Assembly (NCBI GenBank): GCA_023246555.1
Contig: JAHFIC010000002.1
Span: forward strand, 1-49,063
DNA: 49,063 bases
Source of the DNA: Candidatus Magasanikiibacteriota bacterium
GTDB lineage: Bacteria > Patescibacteriota > Patescibacteriia > Magasanikbacterales > UBA922
Direction of reading: 5' to 3'
The notes beneath the pieces are model-generated. The model was not told the origin of the DNA and did not search any database. It saw only the letters and a list, made by a program, of their open reading frames with translations. The position numbers were made by a program, and so were the translations under genes. This document shows, piece by piece, positions 1-44,881 of the stretch; the stretch's first letter is position 1, and each line of letters opens with the position of its first letter.

Positions 1-318
1 TCGGAGTTTGTCCATTGTTAGGTCCCCCTCGTGCACCGCAAGAACATTCGGGAAGGGGTGGCAGGGGAAGACGCGACTCCGGACGGTTTTATACACCGCG
101 ATATCAAAGCCCTTCTCAAAGGCCGCTTTGACGAATGAGCTGTTCAAAAGGGGTCCGGGCGGAATGCCGAATGGCGCGTACACTTTGTGGCCGTGAAAGT
201 CGTATTGCGGTTCGCCTGCCGGCTCTAATTTTTTTCCGTCCGCAAATGCGCCAAACGGCCCCTCGCCATAGTTTTCATCGTATGATTTGGTCGGGTCGTA
301 AAATGGTTCATGCAACAT
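1..318 (-). CDS. PyrD-family (dihydroorotate dehydrogenase-like) protein; N-terminal 106 codons, continues past the window edge
   Basis: Own translation of the minus strand, with ATG at 318..316: MLHEPFYDPTKSYDENYGEGPF...HKVYAPFGIPPGPLLNSSFVKAAFEKGFDIAVYKTVRSRVFPCHPFPNVLAV. The FGIPxGPLxNS / YKTV pattern fits the N-terminus of PyrD-type flavin TIM-barrel enzymes. It lies 12 nt downstream of pyrC on the same strand. It is absent from the ORF track because its stop is outside the window. Confidence 0.5.
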   Translation of the reverse strand, partial: MLHEPFYDPTKSYDENYGEGPFGAFADGKKLEPAGEPQYDFHGHKVYAPFGIPPGPLLNSSFVKAAFEKGFDIAVYKTVRSRVFPCHPFPNVLAVHEGDLTMDKLR

Positions 319-330
319 ACATTTCAAATT

Positions 331-388
331 CTATTTTCTCCCGCCCTTGGCGGGACCCCGCCTACTGGCGGTGGTACTCTCTACTTTC
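331..388. repeat. 58-nt double-hairpin element, copy A (forms the pyrC C-terminal tail and stop codon)
   Basis: CTATTTTCTCCCGCCCTTGGCGGGACCCCGCCTACTGGCGGTGGTACTCTCTACTTTC. About 85% identical to 6740-6797. Confidence 0.85.
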
Positions 389-2923: not shown

Positions 2924-5900
2924 TTATGATTGAAATTGCATAAACTCCTGCCATGATACCACAGAGATATTTTTTTCACGAAGCGTTGCTAGGCATTTCA
3001 AAAAAACTTCGGCAAATTGGGCATTGGTAATGAGCGGGATGTGATGGTCGATGGCACGGCGGCGGATCAAATAGCCATCGGTTTCGTGACGTCGCGTATC
3101 GTGTCTTGGAATGTTCACGATAAGGTCTATCGTTCGGTTCTCAATCGCGGTGGTAATATTCGGCTCAATTTCATCGCTGGCTTTAAACAAACATCTGGAT
3201 CCAATGCCGTGCGCTGACAAGACATCGTGGGTGCCCTCGGTGGCAGAAATATCCCAGCCGTTTTCTTCCAGTACGCGTATGAGCGGCACAAATTTTTCTT
3301 TCTCGTCACCTATTGAAACAAAAATGCGTTTTTTGGCGATGTGCTGTTCGGTCGCGAGCCAGGCAAGAAAAAACGCTTCTCCATAATTTTTTCCGATACA
3401 CGCGACTTCTCCGGTAGACGCCATCTCGACTCCAGCGATTGGATCTGAACCCTTCAGGCGTTGATAGGAAAATTGCGGCATTTTGACCCCGACATGGGAA
3501 AGCTCAAGCGTTTCATATGCAGGGGTGTCCGGCATGGATTTTTCGAGAAGCAAGCGGGTGGCAATATCGATGAAGTTGTGCCCCGTGACTTTTGAAACAA
3601 AAGGAAATGACCGTGACGCTCGAAGATTGCATTCGATCACTTTGAGGTCATGGTCTTTTGCAAGGAATTGAATATTAAACGGGCCAGTGACGTGAAGCGC
3701 TCGAACGATCCGCGCGGTAATCGCCTTGGCCCGGCGGATCGTTTCCAAATAGAGCCGTTGGGGAGGAAGAACAATCGTTGCATCCCCCGAGTGCACTCCG
3801 GCATGCTCGACGTGTTCAGAAATAGCTTGAATGACCACACTGCCATTGTTCGCTACTCCATCGATATCGAGTTCTTTTGCTTTGGTGATAAATTTTGAAA
3901 TGACGACCGGATGATCGGGCGAAAGTGTTGTTGCCGTATTGATGTAGGCGGTCAACTCCTCTTCAGAATACACCACATTCATTGCGGCGCCGGAAAGGAC
4001 GTACGATGGTCGCACGAGTACCGGATACCCGACCCGTGTGGAGAAGGCCTTAGCTCGAGGGAGAGTCGTTGCTTCCTCCCATGACGGCTGATCAATGTTC
4101 AAAGTAGTGAGAAGCGTGGAGAATACTTTTCTGTTTTCAGCTCGATCAATATTCTGTCCGGTTGTTCCGAGGATAGTATAGCCGTGTTTCGAAAGCGGCA
4201 AGGCAAGTGTATTTGCAATTTGTCCTCCCACAGAGACGATAATCCCCTTTGCCTGTTCAGCATCGGCAATATCTTGTATTCGCTCCAGCGTTAATTCTTC
4301 AAAATAGAGCCGGTCGGATTCATCATAATCAGTTGAAACCGTTTCGGGGTTGGAGTTGATGATGATCGTAGTTTCTTGAAGCGAACGTAGTGTCCTTGCG
4401 GTGTTGACAGCGCACCAATCAAACTCCACGGATGAGCCAATACAATATGGTCCGGAGCCGAGGACAATTATCGGCCGTTTTTTTGCGGGTGCAGAATCAT
4501 TGGTTTCACCATGATAGGTCGTGTATAAGTAATTTGTTTCGGCAGGAAACTCACCGGCAAGTGTATCAATATGCTTTACGACGGGCTGAATACCTAGGGT
4601 GATTCGGCGTTTTCGTATCGTGTCTTCGGTCAGATGTTTGATTCTTCCAATCGTTTTGTCAGAAAAGCCCATACACTTCGCGTTTCGGAACATGTCCGGA
4701 GTCAGCGCGTGTTTTTTCATCGCGTGTTTCGCCACGGCGATATTTTTTATGTGATACAGAAACCATCGGTCAATATGCGAAAGCCGGTGCGCGTGCTCGA
4801 CATCTCCGCCGCGCATAAAAAATTCCGCAAGAGCAAAAAGCCGGCGGTCAGTGGCTTCTCGGACCTCTTCTTCGTAGTTTGGGATCTGATGGGGATATTC
4901 TGTCACACCATCGGCGCCAATGTTGAGCATTCGTACCGCTTTTTGAAGGGCCTCGGGAAATGACCGTCCAATTCCCATCACTTCACCAACACTTTTCATT
5001 TCAGAACCGATACGTCGATCTGCGGATTTAAATTTTGTCAGATCCCAGCGCGGAATTTTCACCACAAGGTAATCAAGCGCGGGCTCAAAAAAGGCGCTGG
5101 TTTTTTTTGTGATTGCATTTTTGAGCTCATACAGACGGTAGCCAAGCGCGAGTTTCGCTGCCACAAAGGCAAGCGGATAGCCCGTGGCCTTGGACGCGAG
5201 GGCGGACGACCGAGAGAGCCGCGCGTTGATTTCAATCACGCGGTAGTCTCCATTTTTTGGGTTGAGCGCGTACTGGATATTGCACTCCCCGACAATGCCT
5301 AAGGCTCTGGCAGTGCGCAACGCAACCTCACGGAGCATGTGATATTCGGCATTCGTGAGTGTCTGCGATGGGGCGACAACAATACTCTCGCCCGTATGGA
5401 TCCCCATAGGATCCATATTTTCCATATTGCAGACGGTTATGGCATTATCATCGCAATCCCTCACAATTTCATATTCAATTTCTTTCCAACCACCAAGGTA
5501 TTCCTCGATCAATATTTGTGGAGCGCCCGCCAATGCCTCACCCGCCCGGTGTTTTAGTGCTTGCGGATCAAGGATTTTTCCTGATCCTAAGCCCCCAAGA
5601 GAGTATCCAGATCTCATCATAATGGGGTAGCCGATTTTTTGTGCGGCAAAAAGCGCCTCTTGAATCGTGGTTACAGCAATGCTTCTCGGTGTTGCGACAT
5701 CGATTTTTTTTAGGTATTGCTTGAAGAGTTCTCGGTCCTCGGTGCGTTTCATTGCGTCAATCGGAGTCCCAAGGACTGATACATGATATTTTTTTAGCAC
5801 CCCACTCTCTGCTAGCGCAAGTCCAAGGTTGAGCGCGGTTTGTCCGCCAAACCCAAGGAGAATGCCATCCGGCCTTTCTTTGTGAATAATCCGTGTAACT

Positions 5901-6124
5901 GATCCCGGATTGAGCGGTTCAAGGTAGAGTGTGTCTGCCATTGTTTTGTCTGTTTGAACGGTTGCAATATTTGGATTCACGAGCACGGTGCGGACACCCT
6001 CCTCTTTGAGCGCTTTGATGGCTTGAGAGCCAGAGTAATCGAATTCGCCAGCTTGGCCAATGCGTAATCCTCCGGATCCCAAGATCAAAACTTTTTTTGG
6101 AAGATTTTTCCTAAAGGAGGTCAT
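2924..6124 (-). CDS. carB: carbamoyl-phosphate synthase large subunit
   Basis: Duplicated ATP-grasp halves and the N-terminal KKVLILGSGGLRIGQAGEFDYSG motif. The start at 6124 (MTSFRKNLPKKVLILG) matches usual CarB N-terminal spacing; the longest ORF starts at 6145. Confidence 0.95.
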   Translation of the reverse strand: MTSFRKNLPKKVLILGSGGLRIGQAGEFDYSGSQAIKALKEEGVRTVLVNPNIATVQTDKTMADTLYLEPLNPGSVTRIIHKERPDGILLGFGGQTALNLGLALAESGVLKKYHVSVLGTPIDAMKRTEDRELFKQYLKKIDVATPRSIAVTTIQEALFAAQKIGYPIMMRSGYSLGGLGSGKILDPQALKHRAGEALAGAPQILIEEYLGGWKEIEYEIVRDCDDNAITVCNMENMDPMGIHTGESIVVAPSQTLTNAEYHMLREVALRTARALGIVGECNIQYALNPKNGDYRVIEINARLSRSSALASKATGYPLAFVAAKLALGYRLYELKNAITKKTSAFFEPALDYLVVKIPRWDLTKFKSADRRIGSEMKSVGEVMGIGRSFPEALQKAVRMLNIGADGVTEYPHQIPNYEEEVREATDRRLFALAEFFMRGGDVEHAHRLSHIDRWFLYHIKNIAVAKHAMKKHALTPDMFRNAKCMGFSDKTIGRIKHLTEDTIRKRRITLGIQPVVKHIDTLAGEFPAETNYLYTTYHGETNDSAPAKKRPIIVLGSGPYCIGSSVEFDWCAVNTARTLRSLQETTIIINSNPETVSTDYDESDRLYFEELTLERIQDIADAEQAKGIIVSVGGQIANTLALPLSKHGYTILGTTGQNIDRAENRKVFSTLLTTLNIDQPSWEEATTLPRAKAFSTRVGYPVLVRPSYVLSGAAMNVVYSEEELTAYINTATTLSPDHPVVISKFITKAKELDIDGVANNGSVVIQAISEHVEHAGVHSGDATIVLPPQRLYLETIRRAKAITARIVRALHVTGPFNIQFLAKDHDLKVIECNLRASRSFPFVSKVTGHNFIDIATRLLLEKSMPDTPAYETLELSHVGVKMPQFSYQRLKGSDPIAGVEMASTGEVACIGKNYGEAFFLAWLATEQHIAKKRIFVSIGDEKEKFVPLIRVLEENGWDISATEGTHDVLSAHGIGSRCLFKASDEIEPNITTAIENRTIDLIVNIPRHDTRRHETDGYLIRRRAIDHHIPLITNAQFAEVFLKCLATLREKNISVVSWQEFMQFQS

Positions 6125-7199
6125 AAAATTTTTGAAACAGACCATTTGTGTCTGTTGGTCCGGGGGTTGCTTCAGGATGAAATTGAACAGAAAAAAAGGG
6201 GAATGATTTGTGCGCGATGCCCTCGACTGAACCGTCGTTCAAGTTCCTAAAATTGACATACCAGCCGTTCGGCAGGCTTTGTTCATCCACTGCATAGCCG
6301 TGATTTTGGCTGGTGAGATAACACCGTTTCGTTTTTTCGTCTTGGCAGGGCTGATTATGTCCGCGGTGCCCGTAGGGAAGTTTATAGGTTTTTGCGCCGG
6401 CAGCAAGCGCCATGAGCTGGGAACCAAGGCAGATGCCGAAGATCGGTTTCTGATTTTTCATTACCTGTCGAAGAATTGCGATGGTGTCGGTGCATCGTGC
6501 CGGGTCTCCCGGGCCGTTCGAGAGAAGTACACCGTCAAATCTTTCACTGGTATAATCATAGTCATGCGGCACACGGTGAATGGTTACAGGAAATTCCTGT
6601 AGGCATCGGATCATGTTTTCCTTCATGCCACAGTCCACGGCAATGATAATTTTCTTCCCCTTCCCATACATTTTCTTTTTTCGTATGGAAACATTCGCAA
6701 CAAGATTCTCGCGATTCGGATCCAAAAAATTTCTATTTTCTATTTTCTCCCGCCTTGGGTGGGACCCCGTCCGCTGGCGGTGGTGCTTTCTACTTTTTCT
6801 GATAGCGCTCAGCATGACGCCAGATTCACGCAAATGACGGGTGAGCGCGCGCGTGTCGACACCGGTCAGGAGAGGAATACACTCGCGTTTCAGCCAAGAA
6901 AAAAGGGACTCTCGTCCCTCAATGTGGCTCCAGTTCTGACACGCTTCGGAAACGATCACCCCACGTGCATGGATTTTTTTTGATTCCCAGTGTCTTGAAT
7001 CCGGGACTCCATAATTGCCGATCAGCGGGTAGGTAAAAACAAGAATTTGACCTTCGTACGATGGATCGGTCAATGACTCTACATAGCCGGTCATGCCAGT
7101 GTTGAAAACAACCTCACCAAAAACGTCTTTTGGGGTAGTGGGGGAGGAGCCATGAAATGTCATGCCGTCTTTGAGCGTGAGTTCAGCAGGAAACATCAT
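6111..7199 (-). CDS. carA: carbamoyl-phosphate synthase small (glutaminase) subunit
   Basis: N-terminal CarA domain plus a class I glutamine amidotransferase with GICLG...H..E. The interdomain linker carries the 58-nt repeat element, translated as RKSRKHHRQRTGSHPRREKIENRN. Confidence 0.93.
   Translation of the reverse strand: MMFPAELTLKDGMTFHGSSPTTPKDVFGEVVFNTGMTGYVESLTDPSYEGQILVFTYPLIGNYGVPDSRHWESKKIHARGVIVSEACQNWSHIEGRESLFSWLKRECIPLLTGVDTRALTRHLRESGVMLSAIRKSRKHHRQRTGSHPRREKIENRNFLDPNRENLVANVSIRKKKMYGKGKKIIIAVDCGMKENMIRCLQEFPVTIHRVPHDYDYTSERFDGVLLSNGPGDPARCTDTIAILRQVMKNQKPIFGICLGSQLMALAAGAKTYKLPYGHRGHNQPCQDEKTKRCYLTSQNHGYAVDEQSLPNGWYVNFRNLNDGSVEGIAHKSFPFFSVQFHPEATPGPTDTNGLFQKFYDLL
6740..6797. 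repeat. 58-nt double-hairpin element, copy B (inside the carA linker, in a different reading frame)
   Basis: CTATTTTCTCCCGCCTTGGGTGGGACCCCGTCCGCTGGCGGTGGTGCTTTCTACTTTT, preceded by an extra CTATTTT at 6733-6739. Confidence 0.85.
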
Positions 7200-7200
7200 A

Positions 7201-7224
7201 AAAAAATATCCCGCCTAGCGGGAT
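7201..7224 (-). terminator. intrinsic terminator hairpin whose U7 tract runs into the carA ATG (possible attenuator)
   Basis: The minus-strand RNA reads AUCCCGC-UAG-GCGGGAU, then A and U7, then AUG of carA. It sits ~100 nt downstream of the gatB stop. Confidence 0.7.
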
Positions 7225-7320
7225 GAGTGTGTTTCGAAAAACGAAGATGTTTTCATATCCATTTCAGGGTATCAAGCGGGTGGGTGGGCGTCAACTGCAT
7301 TATCCACAGACAGGTCATAT

Positions 7321-16850: not shown

Positions 16851-16882
16851 AAGCCGAAAGCTGATTGCCGAAGGCCGAGAGC
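16848..16882. repeat. heptamer array, 5 units, inverted relative to 16427-16461
   Basis: The reverse complement reads GCTCTCG GCCTTCG GCAATCA GCTTTCG GCTTGTG. Confidence 0.85.
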
Positions 16883-18230: not shown

Positions 18231-20372
<2,142 letters not shown>

Positions 20373-29023: not shown

Positions 29024-29044
29024 GGATGGCGGAATTGGTAGACC
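29024..29044 (+). repeat. orphan copy of the 5' part of tRNA-Leu
   Basis: TGGCGGAATTGGTAGAC (29028-29044) is identical to 29109-29125 in the tRNA. No matching anticodon arm, T arm or 3' acceptor strand follows. Confidence 0.7.
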
Positions 29045-29095
29045 TGCCTGCCGGCAGGCAGGCGCATCCCGCCAGAGGCGGGACGGGTTTACATA
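29044..29095 (+). terminator. perfect 20-nt palindrome plus a CCCGCC hairpin downstream of the substrate-binding-protein gene
   Basis: CCTGCCTGCCGGCAGGCAGG (29044-29063), then TCCCGCC-AGA-GGCGGGA (29068-29084) followed by CGGGTTT. Confidence 0.45.
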
Positions 29096-29101
29096 CATCG
29101 T

Positions 29102-29185
<84 letters not shown>

Positions 29186-29228
29186 CAATGTAAGTAAACG
29201 TATTGGATATATTTTTCTTCTTAATCAT

Positions 29229-35307: not shown

Positions 35308-36344
35308 AGAAAAGTTAAAAATTTTTGCCATTCGCTTCGGACATCTCGAATAATCTGCTCTCGCTCTTTGTGGGTTTTTGATTGGGAAAAAGCGATTTTT
35401 TTCTCTTGAATCAGCGTGACAAAATCCGCTACCTGTGAAAGGTCCGCTTCTTGTTCGGCCAAGTCTTCAGCTCGCTTTTCGAGATTATAAAAGCGGAAAA
35501 TAATAAGAGCGAACACTCGCTCGCGAAGCTCGCGTTTGCATTCTGCCTGCTCTTGCCCATTTTTACCTTCGCATTTTTTTACTTCTTCTCTCATGACAGG
35601 TCCAAGCTGTAATGCGGCTTTCGCGCAGGCATTGCGCGCCGCGTCATCTTTTTTATTCCAGCACGGCTGGTAGGATTTGTAGCGCTCAATGCAGAGCGAT
35701 CGAGCGTCTTTGTCCTCTAAAAGCCGGCAGGCTTCCGGCAGGTATTCAATCTCGAGTTCACGCGCGACGCCTGCCGGGGTAAGATTCAAACGACAGAAAA
35801 CGCGATCGCGGAGTGTTCGGAGATTGCCGCATTGGAGCGTCTCGCATCGCTTCGTGAATCGCGGGCTTGGGGTATCGGCCGCCGCGCAATCATTTTTTTT
35901 CAGGCAGGTGCGAATTTGATTGCCTTGGGGATCGCACGCTGTCCACGCCGTGCACCCCCAAGTGTCTTCGGTGCATGCGACTGGCAGAGGCGTTGGAGGA
36001 GTTGGGGCAAGCGTTGGTGCTGGCGTATGTACTGGCGCTGGTGCGGGTGGTGGCGTCGGTACTGGCGTCGGCGCGGGTTCGGGTGGTGGGGCAGGCTGTG
36101 ACGGCGGCACACAATCCTTTTTTTCTTCGGGTCGTTTGGTATCCACAGCCTCGCCCAGACAGTCAAATGTTTTAACACAAGTTCTCTTGGCAGATCCTTG
36201 GGGAGAGCACTCGCCCCAGTCACTACAGACCCAGACGTCGGAATCGCATGATGGAACAGAGCCGCCACTGCCTCCGCCGGCGGCATGGGCAGTCGTTCCT
36301 TGAAGAGAGGCGAGAAGCATGATGGAAAAAAGTATGTGGCGCAT
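35304..36344 (-). CDS. secreted Cys-rich protein with two thrombospondin-type-1-like W-x-x-C...G...R-T-C repeats and a Pro-rich linker
   Basis: Signal peptide MRHILFSIMLLASLQGTTAHA. The repeats are DWGECSPQGSAKRTC and AWTACDPQGNQIRTC. The longer track ORF (to 36734) would overlap the divergent ppc gene. Confidence 0.65.
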   Translation of the reverse strand: MRHILFSIMLLASLQGTTAHAAGGGSGGSVPSCDSDVWVCSDWGECSPQGSAKRTCVKTFDCLGEAVDTKRPEEKKDCVPPSQPAPPPEPAPTPVPTPPPAPAPVHTPAPTLAPTPPTPLPVACTEDTWGCTAWTACDPQGNQIRTCLKKNDCAAADTPSPRFTKRCETLQCGNLRTLRDRVFCRLNLTPAGVARELEIEYLPEACRLLEDKDARSLCIERYKSYQPCWNKKDDAARNACAKAALQLGPVMREEVKKCEGKNGQEQAECKRELRERVFALIIFRFYNLEKRAEDLAEQEADLSQVADFVTLIQEKKIAFSQSKTHKEREQIIRDVRSEWQKFLTFL

Positions 36345-36388
36345 AGGAGTAGGAATTCTATCTCCCCTATGATACCATGATGATCGGT

Positions 36389-37846
36389 ATGACGACCATT
36401 CCCCGCACCATGAGCACCCAGCATCCGGATAATGTGAATATGCCGTTTTTCGCTGAGCATCAGATGCTCGGTGGTGAAGATGAAATTCAAGAGGCTTTTT
36501 ACGCCTACGCGCATTTAGGGTGTGGAGAACAGATGTGGGATTTTGAAGGGAAAGAGGTAGATAATTTTGTCGTAAAAAAGCTTTTGGCAAAAAACGAGTC
36601 ATTTTTTCGAAAGAAAAAACTTGGGCAAGATGTGCGATTGACTTTTCGCGTGCCGAATCCAGACATTGAGCGCGGAGAAGCAAAGATTCTTTTGGAAACG
36701 CTTGAAAGTATTCCTCGTTCGTTTGATGCGGCAAAATTATTTTATGGCGAGGGGATCGCTCCGGTGTTTGAAGTCATTCTTCCTATGACCACGTCTGCGG
36801 TGGCCATGAATCGCATCTATCGCTACTATACCGATGTTGTCGTTGGGAAATCCGGTAAGACGCTTGGGGACGGCATGACGATCGGGGAATGGATCGGAGA
36901 ATTTTTGCCAGACCGAGTTCATGTCATTCCGCTTTTTGAAGACAGAGAGCACATGCTTGGGTCTGCAGATATTGTCCGCGAGTATCTTCAGGACAAACGC
37001 GTGCCATATCAACGGGTGTTTCTTGCGCGGTCAGATCCGGCCGTCAACTACGGACAGATCGCCACAGTGCTCATGAATAAAATTGCATTGCAACGCCTCT
37101 GGCGTTTGTCAGAGGAAATCGGCGTTCCTATCTATCCGATTCTCGGCGTTGGTTCTGCCCCGTTTCGTGGGAATCTGCGGCCAGAGACAGCACAGGGGAT
37201 TTTGAATGGATATCCGAGCGTTGAGACATTTACCATTCAGTCATCCTTCAAATTCGATCATACTCCCGACGTGGTGCAAAAAGCCATTGCCCTATTAAAT
37301 GACACGCCGCGGCAAGCGCCGCTGCTCATCGACGAGGAGCGCGCTTTGCGCATTATTGACATATATCGGGCAGCGTATGGCGTACAGCTCCGGCGTATTG
37401 TCGAACCGGTAAATCGCGTTGCTCGGTTTATTCCAAAACGTCGGAAGCGAAAATTGCATACTGGTTTGTTTGGTTATTCACGTGAGGTGGATGAGATGAA
37501 ATTGCCTCGGGCCATTACCTTCACCGCCTCCATGTATTCTTTGGGTGTTCCACCGGAGCTTTTGGGGTTTCATGCGCTCACGCAAGAAGATAAGGCCTTT
37601 ATTGAGACGGTCTACCCACATATGAAAGAAGATTTGCGTGACGCGGCACGGTTTGCTGATCGGGAAAGTCCATTTTTTCCAGAAGAATTACAGCAGTGTG
37701 TTGACGAGTTGGCGTCAGGTGGTGTGGTGTCCCAAGCGCATCGGGAGGAAACAAAATGGATTGCAAAAAATATTCAGGAAAATACAGTCGTTGATCTTGG
37801 GGATGCGGTTCTTGCCGCTGCCCAGATACGGGGTTTCCTTGGTTAG
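36389..37846 (+). CDS. ppcA: phosphoenolpyruvate carboxylase, archaeal type
   Basis: The N-terminal IPRTMSTQHPDNV signature and ~485-aa length are typical of archaeal-type PEPC, as opposed to the ~900-aa bacterial Ppc. Confidence 0.85.
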   Translation: MTTIPRTMSTQHPDNVNMPFFAEHQMLGGEDEIQEAFYAYAHLGCGEQMWDFEGKEVDNFVVKKLLAKNESFFRKKKLGQDVRLTFRVPNPDIERGEAKILLETLESIPRSFDAAKLFYGEGIAPVFEVILPMTTSAVAMNRIYRYYTDVVVGKSGKTLGDGMTIGEWIGEFLPDRVHVIPLFEDREHMLGSADIVREYLQDKRVPYQRVFLARSDPAVNYGQIATVLMNKIALQRLWRLSEEIGVPIYPILGVGSAPFRGNLRPETAQGILNGYPSVETFTIQSSFKFDHTPDVVQKAIALLNDTPRQAPLLIDEERALRIIDIYRAAYGVQLRRIVEPVNRVARFIPKRRKRKLHTGLFGYSREVDEMKLPRAITFTASMYSLGVPPELLGFHALTQEDKAFIETVYPHMKEDLRDAARFADRESPFFPEELQQCVDELASGGVVSQAHREETKWIAKNIQENTVVDLGDAVLAAAQIRGFLG

Positions 37847-44050: not shown

Positions 44051-44086
44051 ATTTTCGTTTTGTTTGCTACACTACTCGAAGGATAT

Positions 44087-44881
44087 ATGATAAAAAAACA
44101 AACATCCTGGGGGAATGTCGCTCTGTGGTATCACGAGCTTTTGAAAAACGGTAAAGGCACCTATCAGCACGACGTGATTCTTCCTCAGATCGTGCGATTA
44201 CTTGAGCCCAAAAAAGGACAAACGGTTCTTGATCTTGCTTGCGGACCAGGGTTTTTCGCGCGTGAATTCGCAAAAATGGGTCCGAAGGTGATTGGTATTG
44301 ATATTGCGGAAGAGTTGATTCTATTTGCAAAAAAGGCCACCGCCCTGGGCGGGGCCACGCCTACCGGCGGGAAGGTGCAAAATTTGGAGTTTTTCGTTAC
44401 GCCTGCGGATCACATTCCCATGATAAAAAATAAAAGTGTCGACGCGGTGACGATCATTCTCGCGCTTCAGAATATTGAAAACATGGCTGGTGTTTTTGCC
44501 GAATGCAGCCGAGTGCTGAAGGCTGACGGCCGATTGCTTCTCGTATTGAACCACCCCGCCTTTCGCGTGCCGAAAGCGAGCGACTGGGGGTGGGATGAGG
44601 AAAACAAGATTCAGTACCGTCGTGTTGATGCCTATATGAGCGAGGCGCGGGTAAAAATTGACATGCATCCTGGCGACGACCCATCCGTCCACACTTGGTC
44701 ATTTCATCGGCCGCTTCAGATCTACATGAAAGCACTCCATAAAGCAGGATTTTCCGTGACACGCTTGGAAGAATGGATTTCTAACCGGCAAGGCCCTAAA
44801 GGGAAGCGCTTTGCGGCAAGCGAGAAGGCACGCAAAGAGATACCATTGTTTTTATTTCTTGAAGCATTCATGGCATCATGA
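44087..44881 (+). CDS. class I SAM-dependent methyltransferase
   Basis: VLDLACGPGFF motif I. Confidence 0.85.
   Translation: MIKKQTSWGNVALWYHELLKNGKGTYQHDVILPQIVRLLEPKKGQTVLDLACGPGFFAREFAKMGPKVIGIDIAEELILFAKKATALGGATPTGGKVQNLEFFVTPADHIPMIKNKSVDAVTIILALQNIENMAGVFAECSRVLKADGRLLLVLNHPAFRVPKASDWGWDEENKIQYRRVDAYMSEARVKIDMHPGDDPSVHTWSFHRPLQIYMKALHKAGFSVTRLEEWISNRQGPKGKRFAASEKARKEIPLFLFLEAFMAS

What the first reader, a model, noticed from the sequence alone, without database searches (positions are those of the whole stretch)
331..388. 58-nt double-hairpin element supplies the C-terminal tail and stop codon of pyrC
Segments 331-388 and 6740-6797 are about 85% identical. On the coding (minus) strand the element can form ACCACCGCC-AGUA-GGCGGGGU and CCCGCC-AAG-GGCGGG. 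It can also form an alternative middle pairing, GGCGGGG with CCCGCC.

In pyrC it is translated as KVESTTASRRGPAKGGRK and then TAG. This extends past where dihydroorotases normally end (after ...AYTVLRGKK). The behaviour resembles REP/MITE-like elements that colonise coding sequence, as the palindromic elements of Rickettsia do.
Basis: partly seen in the sequence, partly recalled or inferred. Interest (0 to 1): 0.62.

Follow-up and report, generated by a model that had tools for sequence, protein, structure and literature searches.

The report
Tiny twin-hairpin repeat inserted into genes
The 58-base segment is one copy of a very small GC-rich twin-hairpin DNA repeat scattered through the genomes of groundwater Patescibacteria; it lands inside genes without breaking them, and here it has given the enzyme PyrC a new 17-residue tail and a new stop codon.

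Summary
Window 329-387 and 6738-6796 are 86% identical. A third, diverged copy lies at 44337-44372.

All three copies share a 35-36 nt core: T-CCCGCC-NNN-GGCGGG-A-CCCCGCC-NNNN-GGCGGTGG. The same core turned up in about 17 further places: two genome-collection MAG contigs and 13 metagenome contigs. It also occurs on other contigs of the source sample.

Orthologous "empty" sites exist for pyrC/pyrD, for the methyltransferase, and for a NusA gene elsewhere. For carA the evidence is only a variable-length linker among orthologues. The copies therefore look like insertions.

Thirteen of 20 copies lie inside ORFs, and every internal one keeps the reading frame. Both orientations occur and all six frames are used. 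The core has no stop codon in 116 of 120 frames. It therefore acts as DNA, not as a peptide or a strand-specific RNA.

About half the copies sit in short arrays of locus-specific 7-nt repeats. Three internal insertions measure exactly 57 nt (36 + 3x7).

The element matches no Rfam family, lacks the REP GTAG/CGTC tag, and is far smaller than Rickettsia palindromic elements. The closest analogues are those elements and the cyanobacterial small dispersed repeats. No mobilising enzyme was identified.

The parts
320..384 (+). Copy 1, whole insertion relative to the orthologous empty site (65 nt): flank repeats CATTTCAAATTCTATTTTCT, then the core, then TACTCTCTAC.
   Evidence: Alignment with L023 and L025. 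L023 runs ...AAA|TATGCTGCATAA with nothing in between.
339..374 (+). Copy 1 core. T, then hairpin 1 (340-345 / 349-354, loop CTT), A355, then hairpin 2 (356-362 / 367-374, loop TACT, one bulged T).
   Evidence: Covariance model R1 scores it 60.3 bits.
331..384 (-). Element-encoded C-terminal tail of PyrC (VESTTASRRGPAKGGRK) plus its TAG stop (331-333). The stop lies in a flank heptamer, not in the core.
   Evidence: Translation; orthologue C-termini.
308..319 (-). Displaced ancestral end of pyrC (TAT GTT GCA TGA), now out of frame. It overlaps the pyrD start codon (ATG at 318-316).
   Evidence: Comparison with L023, where pyrC ends ..TAT GCT GCA TAA overlapping ATGCTGCAT of pyrD.
6730..6800 (+). 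Copy 2 with its heptamer array: TTTCTAT x2.7 (6730-6748), core (6748-6783), then TGC TTTCTAC TTTTTCT (6784-6800). It is read in frame as CarA residues about 134-156.
   Evidence: R1 scores it 57.2 bits.
6748..6783 (+). Copy 2 core. Two stem positions have changed so that they pair only as G-U on the plus strand, and the hairpins are weakened.
44337..44372 (-). Copy 3, a diverged core. It is read in frame as ATALGGATPTGG inside a SAM-dependent methyltransferase (44060-44881, plus strand). TGCAAAA occurs on both sides.
   Evidence: R1 24.2 bits, E = 0.006; sequence. Orthologues at 75-79% identity lack these 12-13 residues. Empty-site DNA is L029.

Best explanation
The segment is one copy of a miniature, non-coding, GC-rich twin-hairpin repeat. 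Its core is 35-36 nt, two tandem copies of nearly the same hairpin. The repeat is dispersed through genomes of Magasanikbacteria/Uhrbacteria-like Patescibacteria. It behaves as an insertion in DNA, not as a gene or a regulatory RNA.

What is shown:
1. The same core occurs at many unrelated loci.
2. Close orthologues have empty sites at two of the three window positions (pyrC/pyrD and the methyltransferase) and at one further locus (NusA). At carA the element sits in a linker of variable length.
3. At the pyrC/pyrD junction, 65 nt were inserted just before the old overlapping stop/start. PyrC now reads 17 codons into the element and stops at a TAG in the element's flank. The old stop sits 12 nt further on, out of frame.
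4. In carA and in a methyltransferase the element is simply translated as an extra loop.
5. The core has almost no stop codons in any of the six frames, and 36 nt is 12 codons. It can therefore be tolerated in surface loops, linkers and C-termini in either orientation.
6. Many copies sit within about five units of a locus-specific 7-nt repeat. Removing T plus core restores an in-phase array.

What is inferred:
- The core is the recognition structure of a trans-acting enzyme that was not found here. It probably acts on folded single-stranded DNA.
- The 7-nt repeats are duplicated target sequence.
- Selection keeps only in-frame outcomes (36 nt, or 36 + 3x7 = 57 nt) inside genes.
- The PyrC tail has no function of its own.

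Likelihoods: about 0.8 that this is a dispersed insertion with a by-product tail, and about 0.35 for the particular mobilisation route.
For: Family and copy number.
- There are 3 copies in the window.
- Further copies occur in 2 MAG contigs of the genome collection and in 13 metagenome contigs.
- Extra variant copies were found with the covariance model.
- The source sample holds 8 DNA contigs carrying the core. Two of them, at the same 5-6x depth as the window, share 62-64 nt with copy 1. Three RNA contigs also carry it.

Empty sites.
- pyrC/pyrD: L023.
- Methyltransferase: P0242-P0248 and L029.
- carA: the element lies in a hypervariable interdomain linker, which is only 4 residues long in P0126.
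- NusA: L004 is filled and L030 is empty. The two are 90% identical as protein, and the downstream DNA is identical.

Inside real genes.
- Host genes are NusA, RF2, Nth, an alpha/beta hydrolase, MetAP, a GT4 glycosyltransferase, DUF1684 and Wzy.
- 13 of 20 copies lie in ORFs: 6 in sense and 7 in antisense orientation.
- All six reading frames are used.
- 116 of 120 frames are free of stops, whereas only 3.6% of random 36-mers are open in all six frames.

CarA structure. The AlphaFold model is confident in both domains, but pLDDT is below 50 for residues 139-155, which is the insert.

Flank repeats.
- 9 of 20 copies have at least 5 of 7 matches between the 7 nt on either side of T plus core. 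This holds in that register only, against 6.3% in cross-locus controls (P about 1e-6).
- Period-7 autocorrelation is 0.66-0.90 in 8 copies.
- Duplicated flank codons (ISD..ISD, TFCI..AFCI, LRVT..LRVT) give insertions of 19 residues, or 57 nt, in L012 and twice in L020.

Flanks are locus-specific. The two copies in one gene (L020) have different heptamers.

No known RNA family matches.
Against: - No transposase, recombinase or nuclease was found among 41 window ORFs scanned against Pfam (one, thirty), apart from the pyr genes named by synteny.
- No presence/absence polymorphism appears in the source sample's contigs. The direction of change (insertion rather than deletion) therefore rests on parsimony against orthologues.
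- Base-pair covariation is not significant.
- The flank evidence is not uniform. Copies 1 and 2 and two further contigs share their flanks, as if the flanks travelled with the core. A tRNA-like T-arm in L010 carries a clean 37-nt insertion with no duplication. Copy 3 and L009 have no heptamers.
- The collection scans required 20-24 fixed bases, so the apparent conservation of the core is partly due to ascertainment.
Confidence: 0.8

Rival explanations
1. Solo scar of a larger mobile cassette. On this reading the twin hairpin is the terminal repeat of an element carrying a small GIY-YIG nuclease gene and a replacement tRNA. Recombination between the two direct terminal copies deletes the cassette and leaves one 36-nt in-frame scar, much like a solo LTR.
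For: In L016, two direct copies of this very core bracket a GIY-YIG ORF plus an intact tRNA-Ser. The whole lies between the two halves of a tRNA-Ser-like gene cut in its anticodon loop. L009 has the same architecture with a different twin hairpin and tRNA-Leu(UAA). Copies in L005 and L010 abut tRNA T-loop fragments. The window has a tRNA-Leu 5' fragment plus hairpins at 29024-29090.
Against: Only two such cassettes were seen. Small GIY-YIG genes next to tRNAs may simply be common in these genomes. No cassette was seen inside a protein-coding gene. The model does not explain the 7-nt arrays. Further copies of the cassette could not be retrieved.
Confidence: 0.15
2. Functional RNA structure. The hairpins would act in the transcript as an mRNA stabiliser, a processing site, a terminator of antisense transcription, or a pyr-specific attenuator of the PyrR type.
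For: Two copies lie in one pyr operon. In copy 2 the two stem changes preserve pairing as G-U only on the plus strand. T-rich sequence follows hairpin 2 on the plus strand, and one site passes the terminator-like scan. L001 and L003 sit between co-oriented genes.
Against: The same core occurs in unrelated genes and operons in both orientations (6 sense, 7 antisense) and in all frames. Wobble changes favour the other strand in L016a and L019. Copy 2 no longer folds better than shuffled sequence. No Rfam family matches, PyrR included. Close orthologues do without the element.
Confidence: 0.05
3. Local event only: a duplication or gene conversion between carA and the end of pyrC within this operon.
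For: The two copies are 6.4 kb apart, in the same orientation, in one operon.
Against: About 20 further copies lie in other genes, contigs and samples, and a third is 44 kb away.
Confidence: 0.01
4. Selected peptide module: a Gly/Pro/Arg-rich linker or tail recruited for protein function.
For: Insertions fall in linkers, loops and C-termini. An orthologous methyltransferase insertion is retained in a 74%-identical relative, P0249.
Against: Six different peptides are produced depending on frame and orientation. The CarA insert is predicted to be disordered. Close relatives lack the segments.
Confidence: 0.03

Closest known systems
Rickettsia palindromic elements (RPEs)
   Same: They are dispersed palindromic repeats inserted in frame into unrelated housekeeping genes, where they add residues without destroying the protein. 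About half of RPE copies lie within ORFs (review PMC10969869).
   Different: RPEs are about 100-150 bp, belong to Rickettsia, and encode a conserved peptide in one frame. This element has a 36-nt core, occurs in Patescibacteria, and is read in all six frames. It is associated with 7-nt flank repeats. Sequence similarity to RPEs was not tested.
Cyanobacterial small dispersed repeats (SDRs) within tandem heptamer (STRR) arrays (Elhai et al. 2008, Genome Res 18:1484)
   Same: From my memory of that paper, which is not held in the library: these are very small (21-27 nt), apparently mobile repeats. Some form hairpins. They are embedded in tandem heptamer repeats whose sequence varies by site, and no transposase is known. 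Citing papers confirm only that the paper exists and that it suggests mobility.
   Different: The phylum differs. The core here is longer (36 nt) and is a twin hairpin. Many copies here lie inside protein-coding genes. No sequence comparison was possible. The resemblance is a lead, not a test.
REP / REPIN elements mobilised by RAYT transposases
   Same: They are 20-40 bp GC-rich palindromes, often paired, occasionally intragenic, and thought to be non-autonomous mobile DNA (PMC3733652; PMC3116915).
   Different: No GTAG or CGTC tag lies next to the stems in any of 20 copies. The two hairpins are in tandem, not inverted as in REPINs. Most copies are genic. No RAYT gene was seen.
MITEs and intragenic enterobacterial repeat units (ERIC, RU-1/2/3)
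   Same: They are short non-autonomous repeats that can give in-frame fusions with host ORFs (PMC10969869; PMC2759123, listed).
   Different: Those elements are 100-170 bp or longer, with terminal inverted repeats derived from an insertion sequence and a fixed target duplication. Here the unit is 36 nt, the inverted ends are just the outer hairpin arms, and duplication is variable.

Membership tests
Rickettsia palindromic elements | In-frame insertion into unrelated protein-coding genes | tested here: met
   13 of 20 copies lie in ORFs, and all internal copies keep the frame.
Rickettsia palindromic elements | Length about 100-150 bp, with one conserved encoded peptide | tested here: not met
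   The core is 35-36 nt, and the insertions measured are 36, 57 and 65 nt. Six different peptides arise from six frames.
Rickettsia palindromic elements | Sequence homology to an RPE family | not tested
REP / REPIN | Unpaired GTAG or CGTC tetranucleotide at one end of the palindrome | tested here: not met
   None of 20 copies has GTAG/CTAC or CGTC/GACG abutting the stems (flanks listed). The GTAG in copies 1 and 2 lies 8 nt away, in a flank heptamer.
REP / REPIN | Two REPs in inverted orientation forming one long hairpin (REPIN) | tested here: not met
   The two hairpins are tandem copies in the same orientation.
REP / REPIN | A RAYT (Y1 transposase) gene in the genome | not testable with these tools
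   Only 49 kb is available. No such domain was found in 31 window ORFs scanned.
MITE | Fixed-length target-site duplication | tested here: inconclusive
   A 7-nt direct repeat abuts T plus core in 9 of 20 copies (P about 1e-6), often in multiple units. It is absent in L009, L010, L016 and copy 3.
MITE | Terminal inverted repeats shared with a parent insertion sequence | not testable with these tools
   The outer arms CCCGCC...GGCGG(T)GG are inverted repeats, but no parent element was found.
Cyanobacterial SDR/STRR | Very small repeat embedded in tandem heptamer arrays that differ between sites | tested here: met
   Period-7 arrays of about five units surround 8 copies, and their sequences are locus-specific. 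An array without a core lies in gyrB. The family definition itself is from memory.
Cyanobacterial SDR/STRR | Sequence or lineage relationship to SDR families | not tested
Intrinsic terminator | GC-rich hairpin directly followed by a U run, located at the end of a transcription unit | tested here: not met
   The coding-strand form is followed by A-rich sequence, and most copies are inside genes. Only one plus-strand site passes a loose scan.
Any Rfam family (including the PyrR binding site) | Score at or above the gathering threshold | tested here: not met
   Only a tRNA is found in the window. The best permissive hit over the element scores 13 bits against a threshold of 49.5.

The most novel reading that the evidence does not exclude
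The 36-nt twin hairpin may be a mobile unit in its own right, among the smallest known in bacteria. On this reading it would spread among Patescibacteria by a still-undescribed mechanism that recognises hairpins. That mechanism would insert the unit without a fixed footprint and generate 7-nt repeat arrays. It might be the same mechanism as for the cyanobacterial small dispersed repeats, or it might be driven by the small GIY-YIG/tRNA cassettes that carry the core at both ends. The unit would then be a routine source of new loops and tails in essential proteins of these reduced genomes.
Probability: 0.3. Interest if true: 0.8.

Novelty: new variant of a known kind. Interest (0 to 1): 0.6.

Why it matters
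Patescibacteria have small, densely coding genomes, and their mobile DNA is little described.

A 36-nt element that can sit in frame inside NusA, RF2, CarA, MetAP, Nth and PyrC shows one way their proteins acquire lineage-specific loops and tails. Annotators should expect odd Gly/Pro/Arg-rich insertions and shifted stop codons.

The pyrC case shows a direct consequence: an ancestral overlapping stop/start between pyrC and pyrD was pulled apart.

The regular link between the hairpin and 7-nt repeat arrays, and the 36 or 57 nt insertion sizes, set concrete constraints on any proposed mechanism. If the link to the cyanobacterial small dispersed repeats holds, it offers a second, independent system for working out how such very small repeats move.

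Tried and rejected
- Rfam, at gathering thresholds over the whole window and at permissive E-values over the element: nothing relevant. Rfam over L005, L009, L010 and L016 found only tRNAs and no group I intron.
- Viral contigs, scanned with two core patterns: no match.
- Covariation on the 15-copy alignment: 94% of cells paired, but only one double change, no better than shuffles. The alignment is ungapped and the scan fixed most of hairpin 2, so this is inconclusive.
- Strand preference from wobble pairs: two changes favour the plus strand (both in copy 2) and two favour the minus strand (L016a, L019). No preference emerges.
- REP tag and terminator models: not met.
- PyrR-type regulation: rejected, because the element is not specific to pyr genes.
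- A simple 7-bp target duplication: rejected as the whole story. Arrays hold about five units, copies 1 and 2 share flanks, and L010 shows a clean insertion.
- A 14-nt duplication in L020b would leave the gene out of frame.
- Search for a mobilising gene: Pfam scans of 31 window ORFs found only housekeeping genes.
- DNA for the 72%-identical CarA (P0122), the methyltransferase P0249 and the DUF1684 variant could not be retrieved.
- The Elhai 2008 paper could not be read.
- A fuzzy regular-expression scan timed out. The covariance model replaced it.

Full report
**Setting.** The first 7.2 kb of the window carries, on the minus strand, carA (6111-7199), carB (2924-6145), pyrB (1997-2917), pyrI (1509-1991), pyrC (331-1575) and the start of pyrD (ATG at 318-316). 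This comes from the ORF list and translations and from synteny with related loci whose genes carry the matching Pfam domains.

The nearest named relatives of PyrC, CarA and a methyltransferase are from Candidatus Uhrbacteria, Magasanikbacteria, Doudnabacteria and unclassified Patescibacteria. The one public run that holds this sequence is a groundwater metagenome. The rest of the window is housekeeping: gatB, tmk, thyA, L1, nusG, gyrB, ftsW, L25, prfA, RNase J, an aminoacyl-tRNA synthetase, bipA and others. No transposase or recombinase domain was detected.

**The observation.** Positions 329-387 and 6738-6796 are a 59-nt direct repeat at 86% identity. A degenerate 39-mer built from them matches nowhere else in the window, and none was expected in shuffles. 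Copy 1 folds much better than shuffled sequence on either strand. Copy 2 has lost most of that advantage.

**A family, not a pair.** One scan of 185,579 species-representative genomes, with a pattern spanning both hairpins, returned three hits.
- Two are clear copies: L001, between groES and groEL, and L003, upstream of glmS.
- The third is a chance match in a Streptomyces.
- Both copies are in MAGs labelled Gammaproteobacteria. However, L003's neighbouring gene clusters at 90% identity or more with a Magasanikbacteria protein, so that label is doubtful.

A metagenome scan that fixed only hairpin 2 and the junction returned 19 contigs. Fourteen of them also carry hairpin 1, which the pattern did not require. 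Two of these, L009 and L011, are the same sequence, leaving 13 distinct contigs.

A covariance model built from 15 copies then found more.
- A third window copy at 44337-44372 (24 bits, E = 0.006).
- A second copy in the same gene in L020.
- A three-hairpin variant in L007.

In the source sample, eight DNA contigs carry the core. Two of them, at the same 5-6x depth as the window, match 62-64 nt of copy 1 at 94% identity. Three metatranscriptome contigs also carry the core.

The consensus is T-CCCGCC-NNN-GGCGGG-A-CCCCGCC-NNNN-GGCGGTGG, which amounts to two tandem copies of nearly one hairpin. That explains the alternative middle pairing.

**Insertions relative to orthologues.**

1. *pyrC/pyrD.* In L023 (PyrC 82% identical), pyrC ends ...AAA TAT GCT GCA TAA and overlaps the pyrD start ATGCTGCAT. 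The window has 65 extra bases (320-384) between AAA and TATGTTGCATGA. PyrC therefore reads into the element for 17 codons and stops at TAG 331-333. The old last codons and stop survive at 308-319, out of frame. The nine orthologues I read end 2-12 residues after the position of GKK, 2-6 in eight of them.

2. *carA.* The element lies in the linker between the N-terminal domain and the glutaminase domain. Among orthologues this linker varies from 4 to about 24 residues, and it is about 16 residues shorter in human CPS1. An AlphaFold model is confident for both domains, but pLDDT falls below 50 for residues 139-155.

3. *Methyltransferase 44060-44881.* Six orthologues at 75-79% identity lack the 12-13 residues ATALGGATPTGG(K). 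One orthologue, P0249, retains a diverged version at the same site. The empty-site DNA is L029.

4. *NusA, outside the window.* L004 has a tail...KMKPPPAGGVPPEGGKMTGSD, encoded by the element. L030, 90% identical in protein and identical in the downstream DNA, ends ...EEKIEG directly.

**Behaviour in genes.** Of 20 distinct copies, 13 lie in ORFs whose identity was checked with Pfam.
- NusA, RF2 and a GT4 glycosyltransferase carry it in C-terminal tails, as PyrC does.
- Nth, an alpha/beta hydrolase, MetAP, DUF1684 and a Wzy-type protein (twice) carry it internally, as CarA and the methyltransferase do.
- L018, an ORF with no Pfam match, also carries it internally.

Every internal copy keeps the reading frame. 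Six copies are in sense and seven in antisense orientation, and each of the six possible peptides is used at least once. The core lacks stop codons in 116 of 120 copy-frames, whereas only 3.6% of random 36-mers are open in all six frames.

These genomes are densely coding, so 13 of 20 is tolerance of genes rather than a preference for them. The pattern rules out a selected peptide. Together with the balanced wobble evidence and the decay of copy 2, it also argues against a strand-specific RNA function.

**The flanks.** The sequences on either side of a copy differ between loci, but within a locus the left flank resembles the right.

In one register only (a single T assigned to the core), the 7 nt on the left match the 7 nt on the right at 5 or more positions in 9 of 20 copies. 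Cross-locus controls reach this in 6.3% of pairs (P about 1e-6).

In the clearest cases, removing T plus core leaves an uninterrupted array of about five units.
- AGATTTC in L012.
- CTGCATT and GTTACGA for the two copies in L020.
- CCTACTA in L015.
- xTAGAAA on the coding strand for window copies 1 and 2.

Period-7 autocorrelation in these copies is 0.66-0.90. L004 and L008 show period 8 instead. The L004/L030 pair shows that the filled site has the core plus about 60 nt of repeated local flank.

In L012 and twice in L020, duplicated flank codons (ISD..ISD, TFCI..AFCI, LRVT..LRVT) give insertions of exactly 19 residues, which is 57 nt, or 36 + 3x7. Copy 3 and L009 add 12-13 residues with no heptamers. 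This is what frame selection would leave if events add 36 nt plus a variable number of 7-nt units. Intermediates were not observed.

Some facts do not fit a simple target duplication.
- Copies 1 and 2 and two more contigs share their flanks.
- A tRNA-like T-arm in L010 carries a clean 37-nt insertion between GGTT and CAAGTCC, next to an intact copy of the same arm.
- gyrB in the window holds nine in-frame heptamer units with no core. They lie at the site where E. coli GyrB has its large insertion.

**A lead on mobilisation.** In L016, two direct copies of this core bracket a small GIY-YIG ORF plus an intact tRNA-Ser. The whole lies between the halves of a tRNA-Ser-like sequence interrupted in its anticodon loop. 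L009 repeats the architecture with tRNA-Leu(UAA) and a different twin hairpin. L005 and L010 join the core to tRNA T-loop fragments. The window has a tRNA-Leu 5' fragment followed by two hairpins just upstream of tRNA-Leu(CAG).

This suggests, without showing, that the twin hairpin may be the terminal repeat of a tRNA-targeting cassette. Solitary copies could then be what remains after such a cassette is deleted. I rate this at about 0.15. More cassette copies could not be retrieved.

**Comparison with known families.**
- No Rfam family matches.
- REPs are defined by a GTAG or CGTC tag and are mostly extragenic (PMC3733652). The tag is absent here, and the two hairpins are tandem rather than inverted.
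- Rickettsia palindromic elements share the hallmark of in-frame insertion into housekeeping genes (PMC10969869). They are three to four times longer and encode one conserved peptide.
- The closest formal parallel I know is the cyanobacterial small dispersed repeats set within tandem heptamer arrays (Elhai et al. 2008). I could not open that paper. Citing papers confirm only that it exists and that it suggests mobility. The comparison therefore rests on memory and is a lead.
- I found no description of such elements in Patescibacteria.

**Verdict.** The PyrC tail and stop codon are a by-product of a 65-nt insertion whose core is a 36-nt twin hairpin belonging to a dispersed family. The carA copy is a second, older member, and a third sits in a methyltransferase. 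How the element moves is not established.

Noticed in passing
window 18456-18517: Nine tandem 7-nt units (GCTTTCG x3.4, then GCTGATT/GCTGAGA units; 63 nt) lie in frame inside gyrB. They encode about [22 protein letters not shown] just before [10 protein letters not shown], at the site of the large E. coli GyrB insertion. This is a heptamer array without the hairpin core. A related short array lies at 16852-16878, between nusG and the next gene.
   Followed up: partly
window 29024-29090: A 5' fragment of a tRNA-Leu (GGGATGGCGGAATTGGTAGAC) is followed by two GC-rich hairpins (CCTGCC..GGCAGG and CCCGCC-AGA-GGCGGG). It sits directly upstream of the intact tRNA-Leu(CAG) at 29102-29186. It looks like a scar of the tRNA-interrupting arrangement seen in L016 and L009.
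   Followed up: partly
L016 8810-9400; L009 5180-5790: Both loci hold a split tRNA gene (Ser in L016, Leu-UAA in L009). Its two halves enclose a twin hairpin, a small GIY-YIG ORF, an intact tRNA of the same isotype, and a direct copy of the twin hairpin. In L016 the hairpin is the element studied here. In L009 it is a different sequence.
   Followed up: partly
L010 1380-1560; L005 3570-3800: Several partial copies of one tRNA's 3' part break at the same T-loop position (GGTT|CAAGTC). One carries the 37-nt element with no duplication, and another carries a different single hairpin followed by a T run.
   Followed up: partly
L019 (DUF1684 gene), proteins P0387 versus P0388/P0391/P0392: Orthologues 82-91% identical have a different peptide of the same length (PRRPDGVGAPTEASV) exactly where L019 has the element-encoded PPPVGGVPSKAGSSK. 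Two of them also have an extra GGSASGGK insertion near the N-terminus. This may be one hairpin element replaced by another. The DNA could not be retrieved.
   Followed up: partly
L007 3627-3687; L018 2010-2030: These are variant copies. L007 has a third hairpin between the two usual ones and a duplicated 3' arm (CCACGGCGGTGGC twice). L018 has CTGGCGGTGG duplicated.
   Followed up: no
L026 10001-11092 and proteins P0122, P0131: Other CarA orthologues have Gly/Arg/Ala-rich segments in the same interdomain linker (PGGARRASQTGGQART, RGGHAQRRAG), encoded by GC-rich DNA. These may be other hairpin insertions at the same permissive site.
   Followed up: partly
L001, L003 (records CAYHTX010000052.1, CAZVNO010000018.1): Both MAGs are titled 'uncultured Gammaproteobacteria'. 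However, L003's neighbouring gene clusters at 90% identity or more with a Candidatus Magasanikbacteria protein, so the label looks wrong.
   Followed up: partly
window 7207-7225: A single hairpin, ATCCCGC-TAG-GCGGGAT, followed by T7 on the minus strand, lies between gatB and carA. It is an ordinary terminator-like site with a stem resembling the element's.
   Followed up: no
window 36377-37846 and 36004-36105: An archaeal-type phosphoenolpyruvate carboxylase (PF14010) is encoded here. Its 5' part overlaps a long antisense ORF and a GGT/GGC-rich 12- to 30-nt tandem repeat.
   Followed up: no
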